A stretch of DNA of 64,000 bases. It comes from Escherichia coli. Lineage in GTDB: Bacteria; Pseudomonadota; Gammaproteobacteria; Enterobacterales; Enterobacteriaceae. The stretch is from NCBI RefSeq assembly GCF_050920415.1, contig NZ_CP169309.1; one strand, given 5' to 3'. Positions 21,726-44,982 of this stretch are shown here, one piece after another (within the stretch, counting starts at the first letter, position 1; every line of letters begins with the position of its first letter). The notes beneath the pieces are model-generated. The model had not been told where the DNA came from and made no database searches. It was given only the letters and a program-made list of their open reading frames with translations. The translations under genes and the position numbers were made by a program.

Positions 21726-21916
21726 TATTATTTAAATATATGGTGTAATCATTTGTATTCATAATATAAATGATTGCATCCTATTTTATTTGTTGAAACG
21801 CAAATGTAAGTGAGCAAAATCACTGTGTTATAAATTTAAGATTATATTTAGTTTTCCTGGCGTGCCTTTCTGAATAATCTGGAATAGAATATTAGAGCTA
21901 ATTTTAAGCATTATTA

Positions 21917-24109: not shown

Positions 24110-24164
24110 GGTCGGCGCCATGGCTGATCGGGCCACCGCTGAATATTAATCAAGGAGAGTGTTT

Positions 24165-25157: not shown

Positions 25158-25197
25158 TGCGCACAACAGCATTCCCATACGGGGATGCTGTTTTCCG

Positions 25198-25249
25198 CCT
25201 GTTTTGCTTAGCGACGCGTTAAGCAAAACAGGTTGATGTTTTGTTTATC
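25198..25249 (+). terminator. Strong hairpin (13-bp perfect arms cctgttttgctta / taagcaaaacagg) followed by T-rich tract, between sinI-like and ratA-like genes
   Basis: Inverted repeat read directly; could be a terminator or attenuator in front of ratA. Confidence 0.4.
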
Positions 25250-26209: not shown

Positions 26210-29200
26210 CGGTGATTTTTACGGTACTCACCAGCCCGGACGTGGCGCAGGCTACGATGTGGGGCCATATGGCGGAGACGGTAGAAGCCCACGGTTACAC
26301 CTTCAGTCGACCAAAGCTGGCGGCAGAAGTCAGCAATGAAAGCGCCACGGTCGTCGATCATAACGAAACCTGGTCCACCTTCACCTGGAGCGGCGCAGAT
26401 AGCCACTGCACCGTGCTGCCCGGCATGCGCCACTTCGGCGCGCTGGCGACCGTTATCCCCACGTCGGTGCAGACAGTCCTTGGCTGGCCGATGCAGGGGG
26501 ATTATTACTGGTCATCGCTGGCGGGCACCACCGGGCACCACCGGGCAGCACCATGCGGCGGATGTTTCAAACCGTGGTGAAATGCAAAAGCCGGATAGCA
26601 CCCCGTTTCTTGTGAGCTGCGTGGATAAACCCGCGCCTGACGTCGAACCGAAAATCGTCCTTACGCCCGAAAACTATGATGATACGGCACAGGCGATGAA
26701 AGCGAAGGTGGGTGAAGACGCCTCGATGCGTCTGACAATCACCGACAATAAAAATAACGATCAACCGCTGGCGTATTACTACTTCTCGCTGCATCTGGAT
26801 GACGGTGTTAACCGCAAAAATCAAACCGATCCTGCCTGGGAAGCCCATCCGGTGCAGATTACTGGTGGTTCGAATTTGCAACAGGTTGATGCTCACACCT
26901 ATGAAGGCATGACCGATGTCAACGGTCAGGCTTCGCTAACCCTGAGCCAGCCCGACGGCGCAGGCGTGAAAACCCATATCACGGCGAAAATGCGCAGCAA
27001 TTTTACGGCCACGGATGCCAAAGACGTGATTTTTACTGTGATCACCAGTCCGGACAGCGACAAGGCGCGGATGTGGGGCCATATGCGCGGCATTGTTGTA
27101 TCTGGCAGTCTGTTCAAACGCCCATTACTTGCGGATGAAACTGAGCATGAACTGGGATCGGTGCGGGAAAATAACGAAGACTGGGCGCTGTTCGATCAAG
27201 ACACCAGTATGCAGGCAGAATGCGGTGTGGGCCATATACCCCGGCAGAGTTCGCTGGAAGGCTTATTTACTGCCCATCCAGGCAACGCCATCGGCACGGA
27301 ATATGGCTGGCCCACCGCACAACAGAGCTACTTAAGCGCGGCGGAGCAAGCCACGCATTCATCGGTGAATTTGGCGAACGGGAGCGTCGACAGCTACTCC
27401 GGCTTTAAGCGAAATTATCTCTCCTGTTCGGGCAATGAGATGGTAGCGAACGTTGAAGTCAGCACCGATCACGATATTACTCTCGGCAGCAAAGCACAGG
27501 CCAAAGTGGGAGACACCATCGTGATGACCGTGCGTACGATTAACGCGCTCAATAATACCCCCGTTCCCTTTACAGCCTTCACCATCACTAAAGGCATGGG
27601 GTATAACCGAGCGGGGCAGGTGAGCGGGTTTGATGACCCGAGCAGCGGCGCAATCACGATGAATGGCACGCAATACGGCACATCGCAGCCCTCTATGGTC
27701 TACACGGGTACGACAGATGCACAAGGTGTAGCAACGGTCGAAATAGAGCAACCCCAAGGGGTGGGGTTAAGAACCGTGCTGAGCATTACGCCGGTCAATT
27801 CCCATCTACCAAATGCCATTAATTACAATGTTATTTTTACCACCCCAACCAGCCCGGATGTTAGTGGGGCGCAGATGTGGGGCCATATGGATGAAACGAT
27901 TACCGTTGATTCATTAACCTTTACCCGGCCTAAGCTGGCAGCAGAAATCACCAGTCCGGATGGCACATTAACGGAAAAAAACGAAGTCTGGGCGCGTGTT
28001 AGCCAGGCAAGTACGGCCATTACCAGTAAAGGCGGTTGCGGAGCCAATATGCTGCCGCGCCGCTCACAGCTCAATGCGCTCTATGACGCTAATAACGGCA
28101 ATGCGGTGCAAACCACACACGGCTGGCCGACGCAGCGTCAGCCCTACTGGAGCAGTTCCCCCGCGGATGTAACGCCGCACTATTACACCATTGCCCTGGA
28201 TAACGGCGCACAGGCTATCGGCGGCGATACGCCGGTTTACGTCAGTTGCCTGACGACGGCGAACAAACCTGCCAGCAGCATTACGTTGGATGTGGTTGAT
28301 AACGCACAGTGGGCTGCCGGAAATAACGCGGCGAAGCTGAAAAAAGGCGAAACGCTACGGGTTAAGGTAACGGTAAAAGATGCGCAGGGTAATCCGCTCA
28401 CGGATATGCCATTTAAACTCAGTCGCGGAGACGGTTATACCCGCACGGGCGAAAAACATATTGCCGGTAGTGGCGATGCGCTGGTGGCACCGGTGGTGAT
28501 TAACAGTGGGCTGGCGGATGAAACGACGTTGAACGACACCGCGGGATTTTATACTGCCATGACCAGTAGCGACGGCAGCAAAATCCTCAATATTACACGC
28601 CCGGATACTCACGGCACCAAAACGGCGCTGACGGCGACGCTTTACTCTGATGCGACGAAAAAAGACAGCCTGGATACGATCTTTACTGTGGTCACCAGCC
28701 CGGATAGTAGCAAAGCGAAAATGTGGGGCCATATGCCGGAAACCTTAACGGCGGCAGATGGTACCGTTTTTAAACGCCCATTGCTGTTAAAGGAACTGTC
28801 AAGTCAGACCGGGCGAACATCAATATTCGAAGACAATGAAAACTGGGCGCTGTTTACCCAAACCCAGGCGAACTCAACCAGTAGCGGCTGCGGCGCTAGC
28901 TATGTTCCCACTCAGGCTGGGTTGTTGTCGTTGTTTGATAATCACGCCGGCAATACCATAAAAACCGTCCAGGGCTGGCCGGTTGTAACGCGTTATTTAT
29001 CCAGCACGCCCGACAACACTGGCATGGAACAGCGTAACTACAAAGCGGTGGATCTCGGTAATGGCACCAGTGCCATGGTGTCAACGTCGACACTGGATCT
29101 ACTGACCTGTCAAACCACGCCGGTCACCACGGTGACCCAGATTCTACTGGAAGCGGCAGATCCTGCGGCTCTGGTTTATGTTGACGATACACTGAGTGTA

Positions 29201-32200
29201 GTTAAAGCCAAAAAAGGCGAAGAGTCGGTAGTGCGCGTCACCACGAAAGATGCGCAAGGTAACCCGGTTGGCAATGCGGCGTTTATTCTGAAACGTGCCA
29301 CCAGCATAAACCGGAGGTATACATCAGCGACAGCGAGTGCAGGTGCGCTGACCGTAGCCGATGCCTGGGGAAATACGCGGAGTAATTTTCAGGCAACAAC
29401 TGAAATGATCTATGGCGTGACGGGGGCTGACGGGTCGACAACCTTTACGCTGAAACAGGATAACAGTACCGGGTTAAGAACCGATCTCACGGCATCACTG
29501 GATGGCGTCAGCGGCGTTCAGGCGACCCTCCCGGTGGTCTTTACCGTGGTAACCAGCCCAGATTCTCCTAAAGCGAATTTTTGGGGGCACATGCCTGAAA
29601 CGGTAACGGCCTCTGATGGCATGACGTATAAGCGACCATTACTGTTTAAAGAACTTACCAATAACTATGCACGCTATAGCACTTTTGAGAATGGTGAAGA
29701 TTGGGCAAGATTCAGTGTGGTTCAGTCAAATAACACCGATATGGATGGATGCGGTGCAGAGTATATGCCGACACTGGATGGCCTGCAGTCTTTGTACAGT
29801 GCCAATAGTGGTAATGCGATGGGTACAGTGCAGGGATGGCCGGTAGCAACCAGTTATCTCACCAATACACCGAGTGATACGCAATTAAGTAACCGTTATT
29901 ACAATGTGGTGCAGCTGAATTCTGGCGCGGTTTCTCAAATCGTGACCACCGTGCTGGTATTACAAACCTGTCGCACAACACCTGCGGCTGTTGCCAGCCA
30001 CGTGTCTCTGGAGCCTGCGGACGCCACGCAATTCGTTAAGGTTGACGATAATCTGAGCGCCATTAAAGTGAAAAAAGGCGATGAGGTTGTTATTCGCGTC
30101 ACGACCAAAGATGCGCAAGGAAACCCGGTGGGTAATACGCCGTTTACACTGAAGCGCAGCAGTTCTTTCAATCGCCAGAATGTATTAGTGACGATGCAGA
30201 CGGTTTCGGTGACACCCGCAGCGGCCAGTACAGTTGATACCAATGCATCGGCCACCGTGTATGGCGTGACCGGGCCAGACGGAACCACCACGATAACACT
30301 CCGACAGGATGCGTCCACCGGACTTAAAACCGACTTTTATGCCCTGTTGAATGATACCGGGGTGTCGTCGAACACCTTGCCAGTGATCTTCACCGTCGTC
30401 ACCAGCCCGGATACACCGCTGGCGGCCAACTGGGGGCATATGGCGGAAACCTTTACCAGCAGCGAAGGCGTCACCTTCAAACGGCCTTTCCTCAAAGCTG
30501 AACTTTCTGGTGGTACGGCGGTTACGACTAATAATGAAGTCTGGTCGCGTCTGACAGCAACGGAGAAAATGGATGCCAGCAAGGCTGGATGTGATGAGAG
30601 TTATCAACCGCTGATGACTGACATGCAGGGGTTGTATGCGGATTACCCTAACAACCAGTTGGGCACGGTGCTCGGCTTGCCGACTTCCGCAGGGTATATG
30701 TGGGCCTACGACATGATGACGGTTTCTGGCAGCAGCTGGAGCAACCAGGCATATTCGCTCGTTAATGGTCAGATAGTTCAGGCATCGTCCAGTTATACGG
30801 CGGTAGTGATGTGCCTGGTGGAACCGCATACCGTTCCGGCGACGATAGCGATCACTTCAACAGCGCAGGATGTGGCAAAAACGGCCAGCAATGGTGGTCG
30901 ACCGAGCGCCGTGGCGAAGAAAGGTGAGACGATTCCGCTGACGGTGACCGTACGTGATAGCGCCGGGAACCCGGTGCCCTACGCCGACTTTACCCTCACG
31001 CGTGAAACGACGCTGGATCGCTCGAAAGCAACCGTTAACTCAAATGCGGACGATCTTACCGTGAAGTCATTGATACCCGTGAACAGCGACGCTGGGCTGA
31101 CGGCAAATGGGTCAAAAGTGCTCAGAACAACGGGCAGTGATGGCACAGCCACCTTTGAAGTGAGTCAGAATGCCACGACCGGTCTGGCGACACCGATAAC
31201 CGTCACGCTGGCGCGCGATACAACCAAAACCGCCACGCTGGATGTTATCTACACGGTGATAACCAGCCCGGACTCACCGAGCGCGAAATTCTGGGGGCAC
31301 ATGCCGGACACCTTTACCAGTTCGGCAGGCGTCACCTTCAGACGACCGCTGCTGAAAGCCGAAGCGACTTCAGGGTCATCGATTAGCACTAACGGCAATG
31401 GTGAAGTGTGGTCGTATATGAGCAACTTTCAAAATTTAACATCGACAGATTGTCCGCTGGAGAATCAACCGCGCAGTAATGAATTGTTGGATTTGTATAA
31501 TGATCATCCCAACGGTGCGATAAAGACTGACCTGGGGCTGCCGATATATGCAGGCAAGTGGTGGGCTTATGATATGGTCATGCCGGATTTATATACGTGG
31601 CAGTATCAAACTGTCAGCCTGAGCGCAGGAGATATCGCGAAGAGCTCGTCAACCAACGCGCTGATGCTTTGCCTGACGAAGCCGCATCCGGCAGGCGTCA
31701 GCGTAATGTTGACGTCATCCGCAATGGATAACGCCAGAACCCTCAGTAATGGCGGGCGACCCAGCGCGTCAGTGAAAAAAGGTAACCCACTGCCAATTGT
31801 GGTGACGGTCAAAGATCGTGATGGTAACCCGCTGGCGGGAGAGGCCGTGACGCTCAGGCGTGGTTCAGCGATGAGTCGTTCAGGAGCAGGAGTGAACACG
31901 ACGGCAAATGCAATTACGTTGACAGAATTGACACCTGTGTCGGCGGAGTTTTCTCTGGCCGCACACGATACGCAATGGCAAGGTTTCACCGGCAGTGATG
32001 GTACGGCCACTTTCAATGTTGAACAGCCTGAGACCATCGGCCTGGCCATTCCATTCACCGCTATACTGGCGCGAGATGTCGCAACTACCAGCGTTCTTGA
32101 TGCGATCTTTACCGTCGTCACCAGCCCGGATTCCGCAATGGCGACCTACTGGGGCCATATGCCAGATACGGTAACGGCGGAAAACGGCGTGGTCTTTGAA

Positions 32201-33000
32201 CGGCCTAAATTGTTGAAAGAGCTGCCGTCGAGCGCTGGAGTCAGTCAGGTGACGGATAACAATGAAGTGTGGCCGTTGTTTAACGCAACGCAAAGGGTAG
32301 ACGGCAACCTCAGCCCATGTGAATCGGCGCGTCGCCCATTGAGCGATGATTTATCATCGCTCTATGCGCGTTATCCGGGGAACACGCTGACGACTCAAAT
32401 CGGCTGGTCTACGAAGTATGCATGGTGGGCACTGGATAACAGGCAGGGGAATGCCCTGGTTGTCAGTCTGAGTAATGGTTTGGAGTCGTCGACGGCGAGT
32501 ACGGCGTATCAGGGATGTCTGGTCAATCCTCGCGCGACCGTCTCCAGCGTCACGCTGACATCGACCGCGATGGATGCCATTACTCAGGCGGCGAAGGTAA
32601 AAAAAGGTGAAGCCATGCCCATTGTCGTTACCGTAAAAGACAGCACCGGGAAGCCGGCACCGAATGTCGCGTTCACCTTAAAACGTGGTGATGCCGTGCC
32701 GCGTAACAGCGGGGCGACGTTGTATGGTAATGTTGCGGCGATGGATGATATGACGGTACAACCTGCCAGCGGGACGGTGGTAACGCTGGCTGACAGTGGG
32801 AATACGATTGATGGTGTGACAGGGGCGGACGGTACGGCAAGTTTTACTGTTCGTCAGGATAATACGCCAGGATATAAAACACCGTTGACGGTGACGCTGA
32901 CGGATAACGCCACAATAACGGCGACGCTGGACACAATTTTCACCGTGCCGACCAGCCCGAATGTCGCCACGGCGTATTTCTGGGGGCATATGGCGGATAC
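26210..33000 (+). repeat. Array of about nine diverged ~850-bp coding tandem modules within ratA
   Basis: Conserved DNA/protein core ttYaccgtggtcaccagcccggat...tggggccatatg recurs near 26210, 27040, 27830, 28680, 29540, 30390, 31250, 32100, 32940. Confidence 0.7.
26523..26552 (+). repeat. Three tandem copies of a 10-bp unit (gggcaccacc, gggcaccacc, gggcagcacc) at the ratA frameshift
   Basis: Read directly; removing one copy restores a continuous frame reading ...[19 protein letters not shown]... Confidence 0.8.
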
Positions 33001-33419
33001 CGCCACAGTAAGTGGCAAGACGTTACATCGCCCGCTATTGAAATCAGAGTTGCCGTCAGGGGCTACAGCGGCAGTGGCGCCAACGGTGAATAATGAAATC
33101 TGGGCGCTGGCACATGTGATCGATGCTCAAAAATGGGATGTTGCAAAGCAGTGCGGTGACTTTAGTAAAGCACCGAGCTATACCGATTTACAGTCATTAC
33201 ATAGCAGCTTTAGCGCGCTGGGATGGCCATCATCGATAAGCTTCCCCTATTTCTCTACCGATCGGGCCGGTTCGTTCTATTGTGGCATGGATGAAGGGGC
33301 GGGGACACAAAACTGCGGTATTCAGGCATCCAGTACTGCGGGGTTTGCAACCTGCTTCCAGTAGTCTTAACGGGTCTGTAAATGGGGGCCAAGATGTAAA
33401 TAAGATTCGCAATGCGTCA

Positions 33420-36483: not shown

Positions 36484-38061
36484 ATGACGGAAAACATTCA
36501 TAAGCATCGCATCCTCATTCTGGACTTCGGTTCTCAGTACACCCAACTGGTTGCGCGCCGCGTGCGTGAACTGGGTGTTTACTGCGAACTGTGGGCGTGG
36601 GATGTGACAGAAGCACAAATTCGTGACTTCAATCCAAGCGGCATTATTCTTTCCGGCGGCCCGGAAAGCACCACCGAAGAAAACAGCCCGCGTGCGCCAC
36701 AGTATGTCTTTGAAGCAGGCGTACCGGTATTCGGCGTTTGCTATGGTATGCAGACCATGGCAATGCAGTTGGGCGGTCATGTTGAAGCCTCTAACGAACG
36801 TGAATTTGGCTATGCGCAGGTTGAAGTCGTAAACGACAGCGCACTGGTTCGCGGTATCGAAGATGCGCTGACCGCAGACGGTAAACCACTTCTCGATGTC
36901 TGGATGAGCCACGGCGATAAAGTTACCGCTATCCCGTCCGACTTCATCACCGTAGCCAGCACCGAAAGCTGCCCGTTCGCCATCATGGCTAACGAAGAAA
37001 AACGCTTCTACGGCGTACAGTTCCACCCGGAAGTAACTCACACTCGCCAGGGTATGCGCATGCTGGAGCGTTTTGTGCGTGATATCTGCCAGTGTGAAGC
37101 CCTGTGGACGCCAGCGAAAATTATCGACGATGCCGTAGCCCGTATCCGCGAGCAGGTAGGCGACGATAAAGTGATCCTCGGCCTCTCTGGTGGCGTGGAT
37201 TCCTCCGTAACCGCAATGCTGCTGCACCGCGCAATCGGCAAAAACCTGACTTGCGTATTCGTCGACAACGGCCTGCTGCGTCTTAACGAAGCAGAGCAGG
37301 TTCTGGATATGTTTGGCGATCACTTCGGTCTGAACATTGTTCACGTTCCGGCAGAAGATCGCTTCTTGTCAGCGCTGGCTGGCGAAAACGATCCTGAAGC
37401 AAAACGTAAAATCATCGGTCGCGTTTTCGTCGAAGTATTCGATGAAGAAGCGCTGAAACTGGAAGATGTGAAGTGGCTGGCGCAGGGTACTATCTACCCT
37501 GATGTTATCGAATCTGCCGCGTCTGCAACCGGTAAAGCACACGTCATCAAATCTCACCACAACGTGGGCGGCCTGCCGAAAGAGATGAAGATGGGCCTGG
37601 TTGAACCGCTGAAAGAGCTGTTCAAAGACGAAGTGCGTAAGATTGGTCTGGAGCTGGGCCTGCCGTACGACATGCTCTACCGTCACCCGTTCCCGGGACC
37701 AGGCCTCGGCGTTCGTGTTCTGGGTGAAGTGAAGAAAGAGTACTGTGATCTGCTGCGCCGTGCTGACGCCATCTTTATTGAAGAACTGCGTAAAGCGGAC
37801 CTGTACGACAAAGTCAGCCAGGCGTTCACCGTCTTCCTGCCAGTACGTTCCGTTGGTGTAATGGGCGATGGCCGTAAGTATGACTGGGTTGTCTCTCTGC
37901 GTGCTGTCGAAACTATCGACTTTATGACCGCACACTGGGCGCATCTGCCGTACGATTTCCTCGGTCGCGTTTCCAACCGCATTATCAATGAAGTGAACGG
38001 TATTTCCCGCGTGGTGTATGACATCAGCGGCAAGCCGCCGGCGACTATTGAGTGGGAATGA
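36484..38061 (+). CDS. guaA: GMP synthase (glutamine-hydrolysing)
   Basis: 525 aa; GATase domain (GVCYGMQ) and PP-loop SGGVDSS. Confidence 0.95.
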
Positions 38062-38109
38062 TTAACAGCTAACTCATAGCAAATCATTCCTATTCAGATG
38101 TCAACTCAA

Positions 38110-38140
38110 CCCTCTGTTTTTGCAGAGGGTTTTTGTTTTT
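38110..38140 (+). terminator. guaA rho-independent terminator (ccctctg-tttttg-cagaggg then T-run)
   Basis: Perfect 7-bp stem followed by tttttgttttt, about 50 bp after the guaA stop. Confidence 0.7.
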
Positions 38141-38196
38141 ATGTATTCATTTCTATTCACTCTACACCATATTTTTCGGCGGTACAGGTGACGGTA

Positions 38197-38211
38197 TTAC
38201 CTTAAAGGTAT
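38197..38211. promoter_or_regulatory. Palindromic operator-like site TTACCTTAAAGGTAT upstream of integrase
   Basis: Member of the TTACCT-N3-AGGTAA family, 1 mismatch. Confidence 0.45.
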
Positions 38212-38253
38212 ACTCTCATACCGTCATGAAAATGGTTTCTATACGGGTGAATT

Positions 38254-39504
38254 GTGCTTACCGATACAAAATTAAAAAACCTCAAGCCGCAGGACAAACT
38301 GTACAAGGTCTCCGATCGTGACGGGCTGTATGTAGCTGTGCTTACGTCAGGCACGGTCTCGTTTCGCTATGACTACCGTATCAACGGTCGCCGCGAAACA
38401 CTGGTAATCGGGCAGTATGGGCGTGACGGTATCAGCCTGGCAGAAGCGCGAGAAGAACTGATTGCTGCAAAGAAGCTGCTTAAAGCAGGCCAGTCGCCGG
38501 CTGCGGCTAAACGTGACGGTATCAAAAAGATTCGTGGTGCCGAGACGTTTGCGGTACATACCGACAGTTATATGAAACACGTCATCCTGGCTGACAGTAC
38601 CCGCGCAATGAAGCAGGCGGTGATCGACCGTGACATACTTCCGGTTCTTGGCAACAAAATGATGGCTGAAATTACCACATCGATGGTTCGTGATTTGTGT
38701 GACCGGATTGTCGAACGCGGTGGTCGGGCAACAGCAGTACAGGCCAGGGAGATCATCAGCAGCGTATACCGTCACGCCAATGACCGTGGTCATGGTTTGT
38801 TTAATCCTGCGGCTGACATTAAACCTTCGTCTATCGCCATATTTAAACCACGAGAGCGAACACTGACACCAGAAGAAATTGGCCTGTTCTTCCGCACGCT
38901 GGATGCCATTGGTGCTATGGGCACTATGAAAATGGCTTTAAAGCTGGTGCTTATCACTATGGTTCGTAAAGGCGAATTCACCAATGCAACGTGGGATGAA
39001 ATAGATTTTAAAAAATGGACATGGACAATTCCTTCAGACCGCATGAAGGGAAGCCGGGCGCACGTTATTTACCTGCCTAAACAGGCACAGGATATATTGG
39101 TTGGGTTGCAGATGTGCGCTGGTGGAAGTGAATATCTGGTTCCTGGTCGTTACAATTTCCGGAAGCCATTATCTAATGCCGCGCTGAACTCTCTGATCGA
39201 CAGAACGGTGAAAATAATAAATGAAGATGGTGAGCATATTCAGGGCTTCACCGTACACGATATGCGCCGTACAGCCAGTACGTTGTTGCATGAGGCTGGT
39301 TATCCTTCAGACTGGATTGAAAAGGCTCTGGCACATGAGCAGAAAGGTGTGCGCGCCGTATATAACAAAGCGGAATACGCCAGACAGCGCGCCTACATGT
39401 TGCAGCAGTGGGCCGATATGATTGATTCCTGGATTAACGGGGAGCATACGGATCTGATTCCGTTCTCCCCGTCGAAGTTTGAGAAGTGGATGGCGGGGGA
39501 ATAA
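38254..39504 (+). CDS. int: Tyrosine integrase (P4-type, N-terminal arm-binding domain)
   Basis: 416 aa, GTG start; N-terminal DUF4102-like region and C-terminal catalytic region (HDMRRTASTLL...ALAHE...Y). Confidence 0.85.
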   Translation: MLTDTKLKNLKPQDKLYKVSDRDGLYVAVLTSGTVSFRYDYRINGRRETLVIGQYGRDGISLAEAREELIAAKKLLKAGQSPAAAKRDGIKKIRGAETFAVHTDSYMKHVILADSTRAMKQAVIDRDILPVLGNKMMAEITTSMVRDLCDRIVERGGRATAVQAREIISSVYRHANDRGHGLFNPAADIKPSSIAIFKPRERTLTPEEIGLFFRTLDAIGAMGTMKMALKLVLITMVRKGEFTNATWDEIDFKKWTWTIPSDRMKGSRAHVIYLPKQAQDILVGLQMCAGGSEYLVPGRYNFRKPLSNAALNSLIDRTVKIINEDGEHIQGFTVHDMRRTASTLLHEAGYPSDWIEKALAHEQKGVRAVYNKAEYARQRAYMLQQWADMIDSWINGEHTDLIPFSPSKFEKWMAGE

Positions 39505-39507
39505 CGT

Positions 39508-39702
39508 TTAATAGTTCTGCTGATTTTCTTCCATCTCTGCTTCTGCTGCCAGTGATTCAATTTTGTTTTCGAATATTGCTGACAGTGTTGCAAATTCAGC
39601 ATCAGTGACGGCGGGAATTGGAACAAACCTGATCCCGCTGTGTGCAAGCATGTTTGCAGTTTCAAGGCATTTTCTTAAATCTGCTGGTGATGCCCTGTTC
39701 AT
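39508..39702 (-). CDS. Small hypothetical protein (64 aa), start overlaps the methyltransferase stop (ATGA)
   Basis: Sub-frame of ORF 39508-39822 beginning MNRASPADLRK; ATGA overlap with upstream gene suggests translational coupling. Confidence 0.3.
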   Translation of the reverse strand: MNRASPADLRKCLETANMLAHSGIRFVPIPAVTDAEFATLSAIFENKIESLAAEAEMEENQQNY

Positions 39703-40349
39703 GCAGCACGCTCCCGCCCCTGGTTGTCTGTTGGTGACAGCGGAGAATTGCTGAATGCATTTGTTAATCCGCCAATATCCAACGCGTATCCAGGGTGTAG
39801 TTGCACTGCCGGGTCTTCGCACTGATTACCCCAAACATCGAAGCCATGAGACGACTGGCGGGCGAATAGTTCAATGCGAGAAACATCGCCTAACAATTGC
39901 ACAAGTTTTTCACGAACGACATCTGGTTTTCTTGAGTGCTCAAGCCGCGGTGCGGTAAATGACTGAACGATCCCTGCATTAATGCGCGGAGGTAGTTTTC
40001 CCTTTACCGCAAACAGGCAATCTTCACTATTGGCGCGAGTCATGTGTCCCATACCCATAACAAGTTTATCTGGTTGTCGACTACCACATTTTATCCACGT
40101 GAAGCCCTTCATCGTCATCAGACGGAATCCCCAGGCTTCAACAACTTTTAGTGCTTCGAGTGGTTGTGTTGGCACCCACCACATGGCCAACAGACAGTTT
40201 TCATCGGCCAAATCCCACACAGGAAGGCGGCAGATATCCAGCACACTCATAACCGGATATTTAAAACCGGCACCGCGATTACCATCTGCGGCTTTGTCCC
40301 GGTATACCCAGGGTGGATCTGCATAGATTAGTGTGTATTTCTTAGTCAT
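39699..40349 (-). CDS. MT-A70 family DNA N6-adenine methyltransferase (orphan, no cognate nuclease seen)
   Basis: ORF 39699-40361; ATG at 40349 (MTKKYTLIYADPPW); DPPW catalytic motif. Confidence 0.7.
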   Translation of the reverse strand: MTKKYTLIYADPPWVYRDKAADGNRGAGFKYPVMSVLDICRLPVWDLADENCLLAMWWVPTQPLEALKVVEAWGFRLMTMKGFTWIKCGSRQPDKLVMGMGHMTRANSEDCLFAVKGKLPPRINAGIVQSFTAPRLEHSRKPDVVREKLVQLLGDVSRIELFARQSSHGFDVWGNQCEDPAVQLHPGYALDIGGLTNAFSNSPLSPTDNQGRERAA

Positions 40350-40641
40350 AAACCACCCCACAACATCCTATGCCGCTATAGTCGCCACGGCGAAGGCCGT
40401 TACCTTTTGTGATACATTGGTCCCTGCGAACCGCGATCCTTGCACGTTCAACATCACCAGAAGCAACATCCATACACTGAAGCCAAAGGTGGGCGGCAAT
40501 GCGGAACTGCCCTTTTTTCTCTCTTTCAATCGCGCGTTTTTCGATCTCTATCGCCGCAGGAGTAACGGCGACAATCTTTGACGGACTGCGCATTGAAACC
40601 TTGTTCATGTGATATTTTTCAAGTCGGCTTAACTTTCTCAC
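40342..40641 (-). CDS. PerC-family transcriptional regulator-like protein
   Basis: 99 aa; pattern ...IEREKKGQFRIAAHLWLQCMD...ERARIAVRRDQC resembles the PerC/Pch signature as I recall it. Confidence 0.45.
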   Translation of the reverse strand: MRKLSRLEKYHMNKVSMRSPSKIVAVTPAAIEIEKRAIEREKKGQFRIAAHLWLQCMDVASGDVERARIAVRRDQCITKGNGLRRGDYSGIGCCGVVYD

Positions 40642-40750
40642 TTAATCCAACCCTCTCTGAAAATTAATGCCAGCAGATAAAGCCATGCTGAAACAGAGGC
40701 CAGGAATAAGTACCATCCTGACCATTTGCTCCAGTGCCTTAGCAGCGCAC

Positions 40751-40999
40751 TCATGCAGCGTTGCTCACGGGACGATATACACGTTGCTGAACAGGAGGTT
40801 TTTTACCCTGGAACTCTGCCGGGCTTGCTGCCTGACGTTCATCAAGCCAACGCTCAACTTCGTCACGGTTCCATGCGCAGCGTTTGTCAGTGATATACCA
40901 GCGTTTAGGAAATTCCCCTGCGCGCTCCATACGGTCGATAGTGCTCCATGACAGTGGCACCACCGCCAGGAGTTCCTTCTTACCTAATGCACCTTTCAT
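40751..40999 (-). CDS. AlpA-family phage transcriptional regulator / excisionase-like HTH protein
   Basis: 82 aa; HTH with ...LSWSTIDRMERAGEFPKR...WNRDEVERWL typical of AlpA/Xis. Confidence 0.7.
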   Translation of the reverse strand: MKGALGKKELLAVVPLSWSTIDRMERAGEFPKRWYITDKRCAWNRDEVERWLDERQAASPAEFQGKKPPVQQRVYRPVSNAA

Positions 41000-41048
41000 A
41001 AATACCTCTCTTGGTTGCAGTGCGGCGCGTGTGGCGCCGCGGTGGTGG

Positions 41049-41930
41049 TTACATAGATGTTTCGTTTAATTCTTCCCGACGAACGCTGTAAACGTCGGTG
41101 GCTTTTGCCAGCAGTTCGTCATCATCTGAAAGTTTTTGTGCAATGTATTTGTAAGCCTTATCCAGTTCGGAGACAGTGCTGTAATTCATCGCTGCGCTGG
41201 TAAAGGCCATCAGCATTTCTTCTGGATCACGGCTATCCGCTTTACGAGTTTGCTCATCAGGCTTTTTCACTGGTTTAGCGTTGATCAGACTGTTCATTCC
41301 CGCAGCAGTAGTTGTTTGCGGAGTAATGTCTCGCTCAACGCGCGGTGCCGTTTCCTGTAATTCGTCAGGGGTGTAAACACCGAGAAGCACATCAGGAGCG
41401 TGCAGGCGAGCCCATCGTTTCGTGCAAAGATAGGCAAGCTGCTGGCGCGGATCCTGTTCCCACAATGGAGAGTTACGCACTCCGGCTTGCGCCATACTGA
41501 TGGTAAGCTCACGGGGTTCTGCTTCTCCTTTAAGAACTGCTGACACAGTTACCGTCAGATTCGGTGATTTATCTGTTTTGCCGTTAACATTCGACCAGTC
41601 ACCGCTCCAGCGATAATTCAGGCGTGTCGCTAGCAGGCTGGAAGAGGATACGACCGCGTTTACCAACTGTGCTTCGTAGCCTAACGTTCCGTTTACCACA
41701 TGCGTTTTCTGCGCCACGGCGAAAGGGTTCATTCCCCACTGTGCCGCCTGCATGGTCACCGCCAGACAATCGGCAGTTTTGCCTTCAAGATGTTTCGGTA
41801 CAGTCGCTTTGCTTTGTGACATCAACTCCGCGAAACGCACCAGTTGATTCATGCCCTCCGGGCTGAAGATTGCCGCAGCAGTACCTACAGTTGCGCCTGG
41901 TTGTGATGTGATTGCGATATCATTGCTCAT
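41049..41930 (-). CDS. RecT-family single-strand annealing recombinase
   Basis: 293 aa; RecT-like core; directly downstream of and overlapping a PD-(D/E)XK exonuclease gene. Confidence 0.75.
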   Translation of the reverse strand: MSNDIAITSQPGATVGTAAAIFSPEGMNQLVRFAELMSQSKATVPKHLEGKTADCLAVTMQAAQWGMNPFAVAQKTHVVNGTLGYEAQLVNAVVSSSSLLATRLNYRWSGDWSNVNGKTDKSPNLTVTVSAVLKGEAEPRELTISMAQAGVRNSPLWEQDPRQQLAYLCTKRWARLHAPDVLLGVYTPDELQETAPRVERDITPQTTTAAGMNSLINAKPVKKPDEQTRKADSRDPEEMLMAFTSAAMNYSTVSELDKAYKYIAQKLSDDDELLAKATDVYSVRREELNETSM

Positions 41931-42748
41931 ACGTACATATCCTGTTTACGTGCCCAGTCAGGGCGTTTAATAATTTCCACGCCGCCCCATTCATCATTGA
42001 TGCGGCATTCGTGATAGGTATTCAGATCCCGGCGGAACAGAGCGTGCCCGGCATCGACATCCGGCGCATCCAGCTCGAACACGCGTACCGGATACCGACC
42101 ACAATCAATGCTTTCGCTCACGGCAAGAAAGAAAAAACCATGCGACTGACCAGTAACCCTCATTGCGCCTTCGCGGTACATTGCGTCCTGCACGTGGTAG
42201 CGGAATTCCTCGATGTGGCGTGCAAAACGATCCATATCTGCAACCTTTTTCACGTCGACGATCACGTTGTGCTCGTTCAGCCATTTGTCTGGACGAATGC
42301 GGCACAACTCACCAGTCTCTTCATCATTCCAGTACATTGATGCTTCGCAGTAACCAGGTGCTTCCAGCATCCAGCGTGCCGCCGGGTGAGCCATTGCGCT
42401 ATCACGCATCAGCTCCAGTTTCCGCCACTGCTCGGCATCAAGTACCGTAATCCCCATATCCGCTACATCACGAAGAAATGCTTCTTCGTCAGCTTTACCT
42501 TGTTTCGTCCGACGATCGAACTTCGGTGAAACAATGAAGCGTTTGTCGAATTCTCCAGGCTCCAGAAGCAGAGAGTGCAATGCGGTTCCCATATCCAGTG
42601 CAGACTTTTTCTCTTCGTCTTCTGGTGCTGCCTGAACCCATTTAAGAAGCGCCGGATTCTTGGCAACCATGTCCAGTTGCGACTTACTCACGCCGTCACC
42701 GGCGTGGTAGTCTTCGTTGCTGATGTCGAAATAAATTCCCGGTTTCAT
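41927..42748 (-). CDS. PD-(D/E)XK-type exonuclease (RecE/YqaJ-like partner of RecT)
   Basis: 273 aa; motifs D..EYH, IVDVKK consistent with PD-(D/E)XK nuclease fold; 4-bp overlap with recT. Confidence 0.65.
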   Translation of the reverse strand: MKPGIYFDISNEDYHAGDGVSKSQLDMVAKNPALLKWVQAAPEDEEKKSALDMGTALHSLLLEPGEFDKRFIVSPKFDRRTKQGKADEEAFLRDVADMGITVLDAEQWRKLELMRDSAMAHPAARWMLEAPGYCEASMYWNDEETGELCRIRPDKWLNEHNVIVDVKKVADMDRFARHIEEFRYHVQDAMYREGAMRVTGQSHGFFFLAVSESIDCGRYPVRVFELDAPDVDAGHALFRRDLNTYHECRINDEWGGVEIIKRPDWARKQDMYV

Positions 42749-43050
42749 GCCGCTTCCCTCTGCCCATCAATCCGATCCGCCAGATCCCAGCGGGCGATAA
42801 TTGCCATTGCCTCGCGACGGTAGGCATCCATAAGTTCTTCGAACTCAGGGCTGTCTTTAGCTGCCTCCAGCACTTCCTGGCGAACGCCTTTGCCTGTTAC
42901 ACCGTCAAAAGTTGAGGCCAGTTGATGAAGCCGGATGCTATCAATCAGTTCAACTTGTCGGTCATATAGCTGTTCTGACAGGCGGTAGTCCTTGTCGAAT
43001 GCCAGCATGATTTTTTGAAGATTTTTCTGCTGATTAACGTTCATACCCAC
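42745..43050 (-). CDS. Hypothetical phage protein (101 aa)
   Basis: ORF with overlapping stop/start junctions inside the leftward early operon. Confidence 0.5.
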   Translation of the reverse strand: MGMNVNQQKNLQKIMLAFDKDYRLSEQLYDRQVELIDSIRLHQLASTFDGVTGKGVRQEVLEAAKDSPEFEELMDAYRREAMAIIARWDLADRIDGQREAA

Positions 43051-43051
43051 C

Positions 43052-44086
43052 TCAATATTTGATATACGCGTCCTGCACTTTGCCGCCAGCGATAGCCAAC
43101 ATTGCTTTCTGCGCGAATTCTTCGGGAATGCCTTGGGCTATCAGATCTGCGATTACTCTGCTGTTAACGGTACGGCGATGCTCTTTATCTGCAGCTCGGC
43201 GCGATTCTTCGTCGGCGATACGCTTCTGTTCGTCAAGGCGGGCTTTTTCTGCCGCCTCTTGGCGTCGGCGTTCCTCGGCAACGGCTTCTTCTTTTTCGCG
43301 TCGTGCACGCTGCTCTGCTTCAATTCGCTGACGTTCTGCTACTTCAGCACGTGCTTTTTCTTCCGCCGCCAGGCGTTCCGCAGCCTCAATTTCAGCTTTC
43401 GCTTTTTGTTCAGCTTCGAGCCTGGCCTGTTCAGCAGCTTCCCGGCGGATATTCTCTTCTCGCTCAATGCGCGCTTTTTCCTCCGCTTCTTTGCGAAGTC
43501 GCTCCAGCTCAGCGGCTTCATGCTCGCGTTTTTGAGCTACTGCGAGTGATTCTTCCAGTTTCTGGATGGTTGAATCCTTGGCTACTCCAGCTTCTGCTGC
43601 GTACTCCTGCCAACTTTCATCAAGTGCTACTGATTTAGCCTCTTGAATTCGTTCCTGAATATCAGATGATGGCAAGTAGTTTCCGGAGAGATCGATCACG
43701 TCAGCTAGTGCTCGCAAATTTGTCAGGCGTTGTTGCAGTGCTTCAGTGCGTAATTTCTCCGCATTTTCCCACTCGGTGAGTGGGCGGCGTACTTCATCAC
43801 GAAGCCGATCGCATTCGGTTACGAAGCGTCGTAACTCTGCTTCAACTACTTTCGGCTGTTCTTTCAGGCGTTTCAGATAATCACGTCCTGGTTTTTCTAC
43901 CGCTGTTTTACTTCTTGAAACCTTCGCAGCCAGAGATGCAATGCGCTTTCTGCCTTTGTCTGTGCTAATGTCAGGCACTTCATTAACACCTTCACGGATC
44001 TGCTCGAGAAACTTTTCCAGCCCTTTTTCAACGTAAATTCTTGGTGCCATGTCTGGTGTGATTTCGATGATTGATAATTCACTCAT
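43052..44086 (-). CDS. Hypothetical coiled-coil protein with E/R/A-rich low-complexity repeat region
   Basis: 344 aa; residues ~190-300 are almost pure E/A/R/K heptad-like repeats. Confidence 0.55.
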   Translation of the reverse strand: MSELSIIEITPDMAPRIYVEKGLEKFLEQIREGVNEVPDISTDKGRKRIASLAAKVSRSKTAVEKPGRDYLKRLKEQPKVVEAELRRFVTECDRLRDEVRRPLTEWENAEKLRTEALQQRLTNLRALADVIDLSGNYLPSSDIQERIQEAKSVALDESWQEYAAEAGVAKDSTIQKLEESLAVAQKREHEAAELERLRKEAEEKARIEREENIRREAAEQARLEAEQKAKAEIEAAERLAAEEKARAEVAERQRIEAEQRARREKEEAVAEERRRQEAAEKARLDEQKRIADEESRRAADKEHRRTVNSRVIADLIAQGIPEEFAQKAMLAIAGGKVQDAYIKY

Positions 44087-44244
44087 TTGCTAACCTCCTC
44101 CCATATCTCGTTATCGTTGGCCACATCGCGAGCTTCTTTGCTGACGAAAGCCCACTTAATGCCTTCCTGTAAGGTGCGGAACTTCCAGCTCATGAATCCG
44201 CATGCAGTAACGCAGTACCAACCGTTGATGATTTTCCACTGCAT
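44083..44244 (-). CDS. Small hypothetical protein (53 aa), first gene of leftward early operon
   Basis: Not in ORF track (below 60 aa); MQWKIINGWYCVTACGFMSWKFRTLQEGIKWAFVSKEARDVANDNEIWEEVSK; stop overlaps next start. Confidence 0.3.
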   Translation of the reverse strand: MQWKIINGWYCVTACGFMSWKFRTLQEGIKWAFVSKEARDVANDNEIWEEVSK

Positions 44245-44325
44245 AACTTGTTACCTCGGTCTGTTACCGTTGAGGTAATAATTATGCGTATCTGGTTTGA
44301 TGTCAATAGATATGAGTTAAAAAAA

Positions 44326-44340
44326 TTACCCGTTAGGTAA
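44326..44340. promoter_or_regulatory. Palindromic operator-like site TTACCCGTTAGGTAA at the leftward early promoter
   Basis: TTACCT-N3-AGGTAA family, 1 mismatch; lies between the repressor terminator and the first leftward early gene. Confidence 0.45.
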
Positions 44341-44350
44341 TCGAATAGGC

Positions 44351-44377
44351 AATAAAAAAGCCGCCATAAGGCGGCTT
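44351..44377 (-). terminator. Rho-independent terminator of the repressor gene (hairpin aagccgcc-ataa-ggcggctt, T-run on minus strand)
   Basis: Read directly; U-tract present only in the minus-strand orientation. Confidence 0.6.
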
Positions 44378-44397
44378 ACTTACTGAAAAATATGATT

Positions 44398-44982
44398 TTA
44401 TTGTTTGTTTTTTTCGTTCTGGTTGATGACAAATTCAATGTAACTTTCGATCTTTGCCTTCTCTGTTTCAGGTAACAATGCGTAGCGCGAGCGGTCATAG
44501 TTGATAGTTGCAGGGTCATGCGGATGAATCAGTAGTTCATATCCGTGACGCCCGAATGCAGATGCAACATTCTCCAGGGTGGAAATGGAAACGCTGACCT
44601 CATTGTTTAACAGGCGGCTGATTGTCACCTGGGCGACGCCGGATGCGCGGTGAAGTTTTCCCTGTGTTGAAAGGTCGCGGCTTTCGCTCATCCAGCGTTC
44701 CAGGTTGTGAGCCGCCAGCTGACCAATGTCGCTTGGGCCGACAGGCTGAAAACCTTCCTGAGAAAGCGAGCGATCGATATCAAGCCAGTTACGGGGTTTA
44801 TTGGCGGCAGCTTCAATTTTTCGCGCAACCTGGTCGCCGATAACCTTCTTGCCAAGAGCCCAGCGGTTTACCAGATTTGCCTGAGTTCCAAGTTTTTCTG
44901 CCATCCGCGTCTGAACACCATTGAATTCACGGTCGATCAAGTCGTTGAGATTTTGCCTGCGGACGTCCTGGATACTTTTCAT
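44398..44982 (-). CDS. Phage CI-like repressor (HTH, Phage_CI_repr-type)
   Basis: 194 aa; N-terminal HTH (QTRMAEKLGTQANLVNRWALGKK) and second HTH-like segment; divergent from a Cro-like gene across an operator-rich spacer. Confidence 0.55.
   Translation of the reverse strand: MKSIQDVRRQNLNDLIDREFNGVQTRMAEKLGTQANLVNRWALGKKVIGDQVARKIEAAANKPRNWLDIDRSLSQEGFQPVGPSDIGQLAAHNLERWMSESRDLSTQGKLHRASGVAQVTISRLLNNEVSVSISTLENVASAFGRHGYELLIHPHDPATINYDRSRYALLPETEKAKIESYIEFVINQNEKNKQ

What the first reader, a model, noticed from the sequence alone, without database searches (positions are those of the whole stretch)
40342..40641. PerC-like regulator encoded in the prophage early-left operon
PerC/Pch homologs on prophages activate the LEE pathogenicity island in EPEC/EHEC. 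A PerC-like gene here could link prophage state to host virulence gene expression. The assignment rests on a remembered signature and is tentative.
Basis: partly seen in the sequence, partly recalled or inferred. Interest (0 to 1): 0.5.

Follow-up and report, generated by a model that had tools for sequence, protein, structure and literature searches.

The report
PerC-like early gene of ε15-type prophage
The ORF is a real, conserved 99-residue gene of an epsilon15/phiV10-type prophage that shares only the short helical core of the PerC/Pch virulence regulators; databases already annotate it that way, and nothing links it to LEE virulence genes in this host.

Summary
Observation confirmed. Window 40342..40641 (-) is a 99-aa ORF. 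It matches Pfam PerC (E 8.6e-7) and EPEC PerC directly (40% identity over 60 aa, E 2e-10). It is under strong purifying selection (dN/dS about 0.1). It lies in the repressor-controlled leftward early operon of a phiV10/epsilon15-like (Uetakevirus) prophage inserted at the 3' end of guaA.

This is the known gene epsilon15 gp31 / phiV10 gp34. RefSeq names it 'PerC family transcriptional regulator' in 558 of 5426 complete E. coli genomes.

Only the roughly 45-residue N-terminal core of PerC is shared. The C-terminal half of PerC/Pch is absent, replaced by subfamily-specific N- and C-terminal extensions. That same core aligns without gaps to ANR anti-activators (hhalign E 5.8e-5). It is modelled as a TPR/MIT-like three-helix module, which is a protein-interaction fold rather than a classical DNA-binding one.

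The LEE link is not supported:
- The closest chromosomal relatives of the host lack ler.
- Across E. coli, co-occurrence with ler equals chance (71 observed, about 72 expected).
- The gene is conserved in Salmonella, Klebsiella and Enterobacter phages.
- Even the full-length homologues PchD and PchE do not activate LEE.

Most likely it is a phage early accessory regulator made on induction. Its action on H-NS-type silencing or host regulators is inferred, not shown. Low interest; already known.

The parts
40342..40641 (-). PerC-like CDS, 99 aa (GTG start, TAA stop). Orthologue of epsilon15 gp31 and phiV10 gp34.
   Evidence: ORF list. Pfam PerC E 8.6e-7. PHROG 868 full-length match 1-99/99, E 6e-62. 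dN/dS about 0.1. tblastn covers residues 1-99 in the epsilon15 group.
40402..40542 (-). Conserved PerC/ANR-type core (residues 34-80). Motif A37-x3-E41-x2-G44-x-F46-x2-A49-x3-W53 ... R72-R73-x2-C76. Lies within the three predicted core helices (28-83).
   Evidence: Invariant columns of alignments A1 and A2. Pfam and NCBIfam matches both cover residues 35-80. AF2 pLDDT 85-90 over this stretch. hhalign to the ANR alignment.
40543..40641 (-). Subfamily-specific N-terminal extension (residues 1-33, L-x-[RK]-L-E-K-Y-H ... VAVTPAA). Absent from PerC/Pch. RefSeq (start M17 at 40593) and phiV10 (start M12 at 40608) annotations cut into it.
   Evidence: Conserved in homologues that lack the internal Met codons. 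Epsilon15 has ATG at the position of the window's GTG. First 16 codons: dN/dS 0.15 against epsilon15.
40638..40754 (-). 38-aa membrane protein (epsilon15 gp32 type). Its stop overlaps the PerC-like start (GTGA).
   Evidence: phrog_17484, E 2.6e-27.
40751..40999 (-). AlpA-family HTH protein (excisionase / transcriptional regulator, epsilon15 gp33 type).
   Evidence: phrog_66. Annotations.
41022..41040 (-). G+C-rich 7-bp hairpin with no T-run, between recT and the alpA-like gene. Same position as the 'stem-loop; transcriptional pausing' feature annotated in epsilon15.
   Evidence: RNA fold -17.3 kcal/mol, z -2.4. Epsilon15 annotation.
41049..42748 (-). RecT-family annealing protein (41049..41930) and PD-(D/E)XK exonuclease (41927..42748).
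   Evidence: ORFs. RefSeq names on the near-identical IHE3034 prophage.
42745..44244 (-). Promoter-proximal early ORFs: 101 aa (phrog_856), 344 aa (phrog_1376, unknown function; not in phiV10 or IHE3034), 53 aa (phrog_898).
   Evidence: Compare.
44264..44341 (-). Putative PL: TTGACA-17-AATTAT (44306..44278), between two 16-nt palindromes TTACCGTTGAGGTAAT (44264-44279) and TTACCCGTTAGGTAAT (44326-44341), taken as likely repressor operators.
   Evidence: Epsilon15 has annotated repressor sites at the equivalent place.
44358..44982 (-). Repressor gene (44398..44982, 194 aa, HTH) followed by an intrinsic terminator (44377..44358).
39508..40349 (-). Downstream genes of the same operon: MT-A70 DNA methyltransferase (39699..40349, ATG start, 8-nt overlap with the PerC-like stop) and a DUF1382 protein (39508..39702).
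   Evidence: RefSeq names.
38047..39504 (+). Prophage left end: att core ATTGAGTGGGAATGATT (38047..38063) at the 3' end of guaA, and a P4-type tyrosine integrase (38254..39504).
   Evidence: Exact match to the published attP core. Empty site in MFDS1022581.

Best explanation
Window 40342..40641 (-) encodes the epsilon15 gp31 / phiV10 gp34-type protein, a 99-residue member of the PerC superfamily. It is a conserved gene of the leftward early (PL) operon of Uetakevirus-like temperate podophages.

Shown:
- It is a real gene under purifying selection.
- It sits distal in a tightly packed, translationally coupled operon: repressor | PL | small ORFs | exonuclease | RecT | AlpA/Xis | 38-aa membrane protein | this gene | MTase | DUF1382.
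- It shares with PerC/Pch only a core of about 45 residues. That core is also shared, without gaps, with ANR anti-activators.
- The core is modelled as a three-helix TPR/MIT-like module.

Inferred:
- The gene is silent in the lysogen because PL is repressed. It is made only after infection or induction.
- The protein acts as a small helical adaptor rather than a classical DNA-binding factor.
- By analogy with Pch (displaces H-NS/StpA from silenced promoters) and ANR (binds H-NS, Ler and AraC-type regulators), it most likely remodels H-NS-type silencing complexes or a host regulator. This would favour phage (and incidentally host) gene expression during lytic development.
- It is not a LEE activator in this host, which most probably has no LEE.
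For: Identity:
- Pfam PerC E 8.6e-7.
- BLASTP to EPEC PerC E 2e-10 and to PchA 1e-6.
- PHROG 868 full-length match.
- RefSeq and GenBank annotations of near-identical genes.
- dN/dS 0.10-0.14.

Operon and timing:
- Synteny across four host genera.
- PL-like promoter between two palindromic operators downstream of the repressor terminator.
- 4- to 8-nt gene overlaps.
- No promoter-like site immediately upstream of the gene.

Fold and mechanism:
- AF2 core helices 28-43, 46-59 and 63-83 at pLDDT 85-90.
- Best PDB matches are MIT/TPR three-helix protein-interaction modules and none is an HTH, though none is significant.
- NCBIfam ANR E 3.4e-5.
- hhalign to the Rnr/ANR alignment: E 5.8e-5, 52 gapless columns.
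- ANR proteins bind H-NS, Ler and AraC-family proteins (PMC4983702, PMC10148876).
- Pch activates by reducing H-NS/StpA occupancy (PMC4764244).
- Rnr is itself encoded in the early region of a Mu-like prophage, so such proteins recur as phage early genes.
- phiV10 has 30-40% G+C tail-fibre and oac genes that would be typical H-NS targets.

Not LEE: no ler in the closest genomes; co-occurrence at chance; conserved in phages of Salmonella, Klebsiella and Enterobacter, hosts that by general knowledge lack LEE.
Against: - No experiment on this subfamily was found, so every mechanistic step is by analogy.
- The ANR relationship is sub-threshold: 23.6 bits against a cutoff of 32, hhalign probability 66%, and BLASTP to Rnr not significant.
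- Foldseek found no significant structural neighbour (best E 0.29).
- The AF2 model is only moderate overall (pLDDT 74, pTM 0.53).
- Fukui et al. could not co-precipitate H-NS with PchA and treat Pch as DNA-binding. The family may therefore contact DNA after all.
- The visible part of this prophage is about 50% G+C, with only the immunity region at 40-43%. A need for self counter-silencing is not evident in the window.
- Expression only from PL is inferred from a consensus scan, not from transcript data.
Confidence: 0.55

Rival explanations
1. One reading: a PerC/Pch-type activator that switches on ler/LEE1 when the prophage is induced, coupling prophage state to attaching-and-effacing virulence.
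For: - Real similarity to PerC and PchA in the conserved core.
- Group-1 pch genes are prophage-borne and SOS-inducible.
- The same gene occurs in phages of LEE-positive hosts: phiV10 and the O157 typing phages on O157:H7, and TL-2011b on O103:H25.
- About 71 complete genomes carry both this locus and ler.
Against: - The C-terminal half of PerC/Pch is missing.
- The full-length family members PchD and PchE do not activate LEE.
- No ler in the closest chromosomal relatives (MFDS1022581, N96) or in the closest prophage carrier (SCU-116).
- Co-occurrence with ler equals the independence expectation, 71 against 71.7.
- Conserved in Salmonella, Klebsiella and Enterobacter phages.
- ZX5 lysogens show no change in adhesion or virulence. 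That host's LEE status was not checked, and early genes are presumably repressed in lysogens, so this last point is weak.
Confidence: 0.06
2. An ANR-type anti-activator. The protein binds the dimerisation/linker region of an AraC/XylS-family regulator (host or phage) and blocks its DNA binding, so it acts as a negative regulator.
For: - Best NCBIfam hit is ANR (E 3.4e-5), stronger than for PerC or Pch themselves at 0.002-0.05.
- hhalign E 5.8e-5, with a gapless match of the residues A/E/A/W whose mutation inactivates Aar.
- Three-helix prediction, as for ANR.
Against: - Score is below the curated cutoff (23.6 against 32).
- 99 aa with two extra conserved extensions, whereas ANRs are 39-80 aa.
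- The conserved ANR residue W43 is not matched in the gapless alignment.
- No AraC-family gene is annotated in the early regions of these phages, whereas ANRs typically accompany one.
Confidence: 0.15
3. A phage-internal regulator with a phage-specific target. Examples: an activator or co-factor for late or lysogenic-conversion genes, or a partner of the neighbouring AlpA/Xis protein in controlling excision. No general effect on host nucleoid proteins.
For: - Strict synteny next to the AlpA/Xis gene and translational coupling across four host genera.
- The subfamily-specific N- and C-terminal extensions are conserved only within these phages.
- No Q-like antiterminator is annotated in the early-region excerpts examined.
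Against: - No direct evidence.
- The shared core with Pch and ANR points to host-factor targets.
- The gene lies at the distal end of the early-left operon with recombination and modification genes, which by general knowledge of temperate phages is usually accessory.
Confidence: 0.2
4. A chance ORF or decaying pseudogene with no function.
For: Short ORF. Annotators disagree on its start: 83, 88 or 99 aa.
Against: - dN/dS about 0.1 with saturated synonymous sites.
- Full-length conservation in 36 phage records and 558 E. coli genomes.
- Invariant motif residues.
Confidence: 0.01

Closest known systems
Epsilon15 gp31 (NP_848239) / phiV10 gp34 (YP_512289) / PHROG 868 'transcriptional activator'
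   Same: Orthologues. 99% (phiV10) and 78% (epsilon15) protein identity over all 99 residues. Same position between the 38-aa membrane protein and the methyltransferase region of the early-left operon.
   Different: Nothing of substance. In the window and phiV10 the start codon is GTG, whereas epsilon15 has ATG. In epsilon15, Tyrion and the Klebsiella phage a small ORF (a DUF1317 family protein in Tyrion and the Klebsiella phage; unnamed gp30 in epsilon15) lies between this gene and the MTase. None of these proteins has been characterised experimentally, as far as the searched literature shows.
PerC of EPEC (pEAF/pMAR2 perABC operon)
   Same: Shared core of about 45 residues: 40% identity over 60 aa, E 2e-10. 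Invariant A, E, G, R, A, W, R, R, C positions.
   Different: - PerC is 89 aa with the core at its extreme N-terminus and a conserved C-terminal half (D-I-K-x-x-V ... M-G ... F-R-x-Y) that is absent here.
- The window protein has a 33-aa N-terminal extension and a G-L-R-R-G-D-Y-S-G-I ... G-V-V-Y-D tail instead.
- PerC is plasmid-borne behind the AraC-type PerA; this gene is in a phage PL operon.
PchA/B/C (group 1), PchD, PchE of EHEC O157:H7
   Same: Same Pfam family and prophage-borne. Core similarity E 1e-6 (PchA), 3e-4 (PchD) and 6e-3 (PchE).
   Different: - PchA, PchE and PerC share 39-47% identity with one another along their whole length; PchD is more divergent (26-39%, over about 80 aa). 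The window protein aligns only over 40-50 residues.
- pchA sits as an isolated, oppositely oriented gene near the lysis region of lambdoid Sp4, not in the early-left operon.
- Only group 1 activates LEE.
ANR family (Aar of EAEC, Rnr of EPEC; NCBIfam NF033650)
   Same: - Gapless match of A-x3-E-x2-G-x-[YF]-x2-A-x3-W-x18-R-x3-C.
- Three predicted helices.
- HMM E 3.4e-5 and hhalign E 5.8e-5.
- Rnr is also a prophage early-region gene, in a Mu-like prophage.
   Different: - Below the curated family cutoff.
- Longer, with extra conserved extensions.
- No AraC-family gene annotated in the parts of these phages examined.
- ANRs are negative regulators acting by protein-protein binding, whereas the PerC/Pch branch is described as activating.

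Membership tests
PerC family (Pfam PF06069) | Significant match to the family HMM | tested here: met
   E 8.6e-7, 29.6 bits. All 34 sequences of alignment A2 match at E <= 0.001. NCBI names identical proteins 'PerC family transcriptional regulator'. Several close homologues have no precomputed PF06069 hit, so the subfamily lies near the edge of the model.
PerC family (Pfam PF06069) | Conserved core residues of the N-terminal helices (A..E..G.[YFW]R.A..W ... R ... RR..C) | tested here: met
   E41, A49, W53, R66, R73 and C76 are invariant; A37, G44, R47, A50, L54 and R72 are nearly invariant. This holds across the window protein, PerC, PchA/D/E and distant homologues.
PerC family (Pfam PF06069) | Full-length architecture: about 90-104 aa with the conserved C-terminal half (model positions 51-90) | tested here: not met
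   The Pfam match stops at model position 50 of 90. BLASTP alignments to PerC/Pch cover only 40-60 residues, while most pairs among PerC and Pch align over 81-90 residues. The alignment shows a different, shorter tail.
PerC/Pch group 1 (functional LEE activators) | Activates the LEE1/ler promoter | not testable with these tools
   Needs a reporter assay. Literature shows that family membership alone is insufficient, since PchD and PchE are inactive.
PerC/Pch group 1 (functional LEE activators) | Resides in a LEE-carrying host, or is associated with LEE | tested here: not met
   No ler match in MFDS1022581 (100% identical flank), N96 or SCU-116. Genome-wide co-occurrence is about 71, against 71.7 expected by chance. 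Orthologues occur in phages of Salmonella, Klebsiella and Enterobacter. The window's own full genome was not available.
ANR family (NCBIfam NF033650) | Score at or above the curated cutoff (32 bits) | tested here: not met
   23.6 bits, E 3.4e-5. PerC and Pch score 13.6-18.2 bits.
ANR family (NCBIfam NF033650) | Conserved A10, E14, A22, W26 (required for Aar activity) and three alpha-helices | tested here: met
   A37, E41, A49 and W53 have identical spacing. hhalign aligns 52 columns without gaps. AF2 predicts three core helices.
ANR family (NCBIfam NF033650) | Small size (39-80 aa) and partnership with an AraC/XylS-family regulator | tested here: not met
   99 aa with conserved extensions. No AraC-family gene is annotated in the regions of the phiV10, epsilon15, Tyrion, Klebsiella-phage and IHE3034 records that were examined. 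Binding itself is not testable here.
Epsilon15 gp31 / PHROG 868 subfamily | Full-length similarity and conserved position in the early-left operon of Uetakevirus-like phages | tested here: met
   PHROG 868 match 1-99/99, E 5.7e-62. tblastn 64-99% identity over at least 92% of the query (97% or more in all but one) in 36 phage records. Synteny.

The most novel reading that the evidence does not exclude
The epsilon15-gp31 subfamily is an intermediate between the PerC/Pch 'activators' and the ANR 'anti-activators'. All three would share one TPR/MIT-like three-helix module that works by protein-protein contact with H-NS-family or other regulators, not by classical DNA binding. Under this reading the ancestral role of the module is a phage early-operon host-takeover or anti-silencing function, and PerC, Pch and ANR virulence regulators are domesticated offshoots of it.
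Probability: 0.3. Interest if true: 0.45.

Novelty: already known. Interest (0 to 1): 0.17.

Why it matters
As a finding it adds little. The gene and its PerC-family label are already in RefSeq, in the phiV10 and epsilon15 records and in PHROGs. The virulence link that made it look interesting is not supported for this host.

Three by-products have modest value:
1. RefSeq/PGAP (83 aa) and phiV10 (88 aa) start sites probably truncate a conserved 99-aa protein.
2. Presence of a 'PerC family' gene should not be read as a LEE regulator. Its distribution in E. coli is independent of ler.
3. The PerC core, the ANR core and a TPR/MIT-like fold appear to be one module that recurs in phage early operons. 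If confirmed, this would unify two literatures on small virulence regulators and point to H-NS-family proteins as the likely common target.

Tried and rejected
- PDB sequence searches with the protein and with the family profile found nothing meaningful; best E was 0.075-1 on unrelated proteins.
- Foldseek against the PDB gave no hit with E <= 0.001. The MIT/TPR neighbours are only suggestive.
- A single-sequence phmmer search of 1.84 billion representatives returned only 35 hits, nearly all fragments of the same subfamily. One 1693-aa hit (P0129) is a repetitive, apparently spurious translation and was discarded.
- PADLOC has no defence-system model for this protein.
- BLASTP against Rnr was not significant. 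Only profile methods see the ANR relationship.
- The word-indexed search with Rnr gave only 13 close homologues, so the ANR profile used for hhalign is shallow.
- Composition of the visible prophage shows no strongly AT-rich block apart from the immunity region. It therefore gives no support within the window for self counter-silencing. AT-rich tail-fibre and oac genes were seen only in phiV10.
- The window's exact source genome is not in the complete-genome collection. The best flank match has an empty attB, so LEE status was inferred from closest relatives.
- The co-occurrence number (about 71) is derived from differences between two searches and assumes one ler copy per record.
Full report
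**What is there.** Window 40342..40641 on the minus strand is a 99-codon ORF with a GTG start. On the coding strand, the GTG overlaps the TGA stop of an upstream 38-aa membrane-protein ORF (GTGA). A GAGAGGG stretch lies 9-10 nt upstream. The ORF's own TAA stop lies inside the ATG start region of the next gene, an MT-A70 DNA methyltransferase, with an 8-nt overlap.

**Is it PerC-like?** Yes, but only in part.
- Pfam PerC (PF06069) matches residues 35-80 to model positions 5-50 of 90, E 8.6e-7.
- I fetched authentic PerC from pMAR2 of EPEC E2348/69, and pchA, pchD and pchE from O157:H7 Sakai.
- BLASTP gives 40% identity over 60 aa to PerC (E 2e-10), 40% over 40 aa to PchA (1e-6), 3e-4 to PchD and 6e-3 to PchE.
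- PerC, PchA and PchE align to each other over their full length at 39-47% identity.
- Alignments show a shared motif, A37-x3-E41-x2-G44-x-F46-R47-x-A49-x3-W53 ... R66 ... R72-R73-x2-C76. They show no counterpart of the PerC/Pch C-terminal half.
- Instead the window protein has a conserved 33-residue N-terminal extension (L-x-[RK]-L-E-K-Y-H ... V-A-V-T-P-A-A) and a conserved tail (G-L-R-R-G-D-Y-S-G-I ... G-V-V-Y-D).

**Is it a real gene, and where does it start?**
- tblastn finds the whole 99-residue frame in 36 phage records: 97-99% identity in Escherichia phages, 77-78% in the Salmonella epsilon15 group, and 64-74% in Enterobacter and Klebsiella phages.
- Nei-Gojobori dN/dS against epsilon15, Tyrion and a Klebsiella phage is 0.10-0.14, with synonymous sites near saturation.
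- The first 16 codons taken alone give 0.15 against epsilon15.
- Epsilon15 gp31 begins with ATG at the position of the window's GTG. It has Leu and Gln where the window has Met12 and Met17.
- The 99-aa form is therefore the conserved protein. The RefSeq/PGAP call in E. coli (83 aa, Met17) and the phiV10 call (88 aa, Met12) are probably too short.

**Context.**
- The att core ATTGAGTGGGAATGATT published for phiV10, epsilon15 and ZX5 occurs once, at 38047..38063 at the end of guaA.
- It is followed by a P4-type integrase on the plus strand and a minus-strand operon.
- The chromosomal flank is 100% identical over 25 kb to E. coli MFDS1022581, which has an empty site after guaA. The prophage boundary is therefore clear.
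- The 1.6 kb around the gene is 98-99.8% identical to prophages in 536 complete E. coli genomes, and to phiV10, the O157 typing phages 9 and 10, vB_EcoP_ZX5 and others.
- Gene order is the same in phiV10, epsilon15, Enterobacter phage Tyrion and a Klebsiella phage: repressor, terminator, PL, small ORFs, PD-(D/E)XK exonuclease, RecT, AlpA/Xis-like HTH, 38-aa membrane protein, PerC-like, methyltransferase, DUF1382, then the convergent integrase.
- In the window, a TTGACA-17-AATTAT site (44306..44278) lies between two 16-nt TTACC-N6-GGTAA palindromes. It sits just downstream of the repressor gene's terminator, where epsilon15 has annotated repressor sites.
- No promoter-like site lies directly upstream of the PerC-like gene.
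- The 'early-left operon' description is correct. The gene is most likely silent in the lysogen and expressed on infection or induction; this is inferred, not measured.

**The LEE hypothesis.**
- Only group-1 Pch (A, B, C) activate ler. PchD and PchE, which are full-length family members, have little effect on LEE (PMC6265319).
- The window protein lacks half of the PerC/Pch sequence.
- To test host context I queried the complete-genome set with the locus joined to Sakai ler.
- The locus alone hits 561 records with 570 places. The joint query hits 1187 records with 1267 places.
- That gives about 697 ler places, 626 ler-only records and about 71 records with both. Independence predicts 558 x 697 / 5426 = 71.7.
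- The carrier of the most similar prophage segment (SCU-116) shows one place only, so it has no ler.
- A second joint query, host-specific adhesin segment plus ler, shows one place only in MFDS1022581 (100% flank identity) and N96 (99.6%).
- The host lineage therefore most likely lacks LEE, and the gene's distribution is unrelated to LEE.
- Its conservation in Salmonella, Klebsiella and Enterobacter phages points the same way.
- Lysogenisation by ZX5, which is 98% identical across this locus, did not alter adhesion, biofilm or virulence (PMC9782041). This is a weak argument, because early genes are presumably repressed in lysogens.

**What it probably does.**
- AlphaFold2 with a 34-sequence alignment gives helices 6-16, 28-43, 46-59 and 63-83. 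The core reaches pLDDT 85-90 and the overall value is 74.
- Foldseek finds no significant PDB neighbour. The top-ranked matches are MIT domains and TPR modules, which are three-helix protein-interaction units, and none is a helix-turn-helix.
- Pfam gives a weak MIT hit for this protein and weak TPR hits for ANR proteins.
- NCBIfam's best hit is the ANR family: 23.6 bits, E 3.4e-5, below the 32-bit cutoff. PerC and Pch hit the same model more weakly.
- I located Rnr, the ANR of EPEC, from a published primer. It lies in the early region of a Mu-like prophage.
- A profile of Rnr homologues aligns to the PerC-like profile over 52 gapless columns, hhalign E 5.8e-5, probability 66%.
- Both families share A-x3-E-x2-G-x-[YF]-x2-A-x3-W-x18-R-x3-C. 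This includes the A/E/A/W positions whose mutation inactivates Aar (PMC4983702).
- ANRs bind H-NS, Ler and AraC-type regulators.
- Pch activates LEE1 only when H-NS/StpA silence it, and it lowers H-NS occupancy (PMC4764244).
- Putting these together, the best-supported reading is a small helical adaptor made early in lytic development. It would modulate H-NS-type silencing or another host regulator. All of this is inference by homology; no experiment on this subfamily was found.
- Points against:
  - The ANR link is sub-threshold.
  - Fukui et al. failed to co-precipitate H-NS with PchA.
  - The part of the prophage in the window is about 50% G+C. AT-rich candidate targets (tail fibre, oac) are visible only in phiV10.

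**Comparison and novelty.**
- The gene is an orthologue of epsilon15 gp31 and phiV10 gp34 (PHROG 868, E 6e-62 full length). Public records already label it a PerC-family regulator.
- It meets the HMM and motif criteria of the PerC family but not the full-length architecture. It does not meet the ANR cutoff, size or AraC-partner criteria.
- It is best described as a distinct, phage-borne subfamily of a PerC/ANR superfamily.
- Nothing here is new as an observation. The LEE idea is not supported, and interest is low.
- The most novel reading not excluded is that PerC, Pch and ANR are offshoots of a phage early-operon TPR-like module that targets H-NS-family proteins.

Noticed in passing
window 40543..40641 (-); compare L001 20842..21093 and L002 6843..7109: RefSeq/PGAP annotates this gene in E. 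coli as 83 aa (start Met17) and phiV10 as 88 aa (Met12). The 16 upstream codons are conserved and under purifying selection, and epsilon15 starts with ATG at the position of the window's GTG. The public E. coli start calls are therefore probably truncated.
   Followed up: yes
window 43052..44086 (-): A 344-aa ORF (phrog_1376, unknown function; no PADLOC hit) sits in the promoter-proximal part of the early-left operon. phiV10 and the IHE3034 prophage have only small ORFs there (a MarR-like protein and hypothetical proteins). This is a variable cargo slot right after PL.
   Followed up: partly
window 41022..41040 (-): A perfect 7-bp G+C-rich hairpin (GCGGCGC-cacac-GCGCCGC) with no T-run, between recT and the alpA/xis-like gene. 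Folding energy -17.3 kcal/mol, z -2.4. Epsilon15 has a feature annotated 'stem-loop; transcriptional pausing' at the same place. It may set expression of the distal genes, including the PerC-like one.
   Followed up: partly
L012 4131..4364 (E. coli E2348/69 chromosome): Rnr, the experimentally studied ANR regulator of EPEC, lies in the early region of a Mu-like prophage, after the Mu transposase, an AAA ATPase and a DUF3164 protein. The ANR protein studied in EPEC is thus also a phage early gene.
   Followed up: partly
window 39699..40349 (-) against L001 20200..20849: The MT-A70 DNA methyltransferase downstream of the PerC-like gene is intact in the window but annotated as frameshifted in the near-identical IHE3034 prophage.
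   Followed up: no
L013 (NZ_CP169399.1 1395000-1425000) against window 38047 onward: Strain MFDS1022581 is 100% identical to the window over 25 kb of chromosomal flank but has an empty guaA attachment site. This is a clean with/without comparison for the prophage. The window's own genome is not in the complete-genome collection.
   Followed up: yes
L004 18803..19390 and 23365..23679 (Sakai prophage Sp4): pchA lies about 4 kb from an AraC-family regulator gene (ECs_1087) in Sp4, and perC follows the AraC-type perA in pMAR2. This recalls the ANR/AraC pairing and fits a common origin of the PerC and ANR modules.
   Followed up: no
protein P0087 (from; aligned): A database protein fuses the upstream 38-aa membrane protein to the PerC-like core, with the N-terminal extension deleted. 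This is a natural deletion variant or an assembly artefact.
   Followed up: no
window ~21900..33350 (+): The chromosomal flank carries sinH (intimin-like inverse autotransporter), sinI and a gene of about 8 kb for an adhesion-domain protein. That last gene is highly variable between strains (87-100% identity). Genomes carrying this adhesin allele rarely also carry ler: 21 extra places among 2361 genomes.
   Followed up: partly
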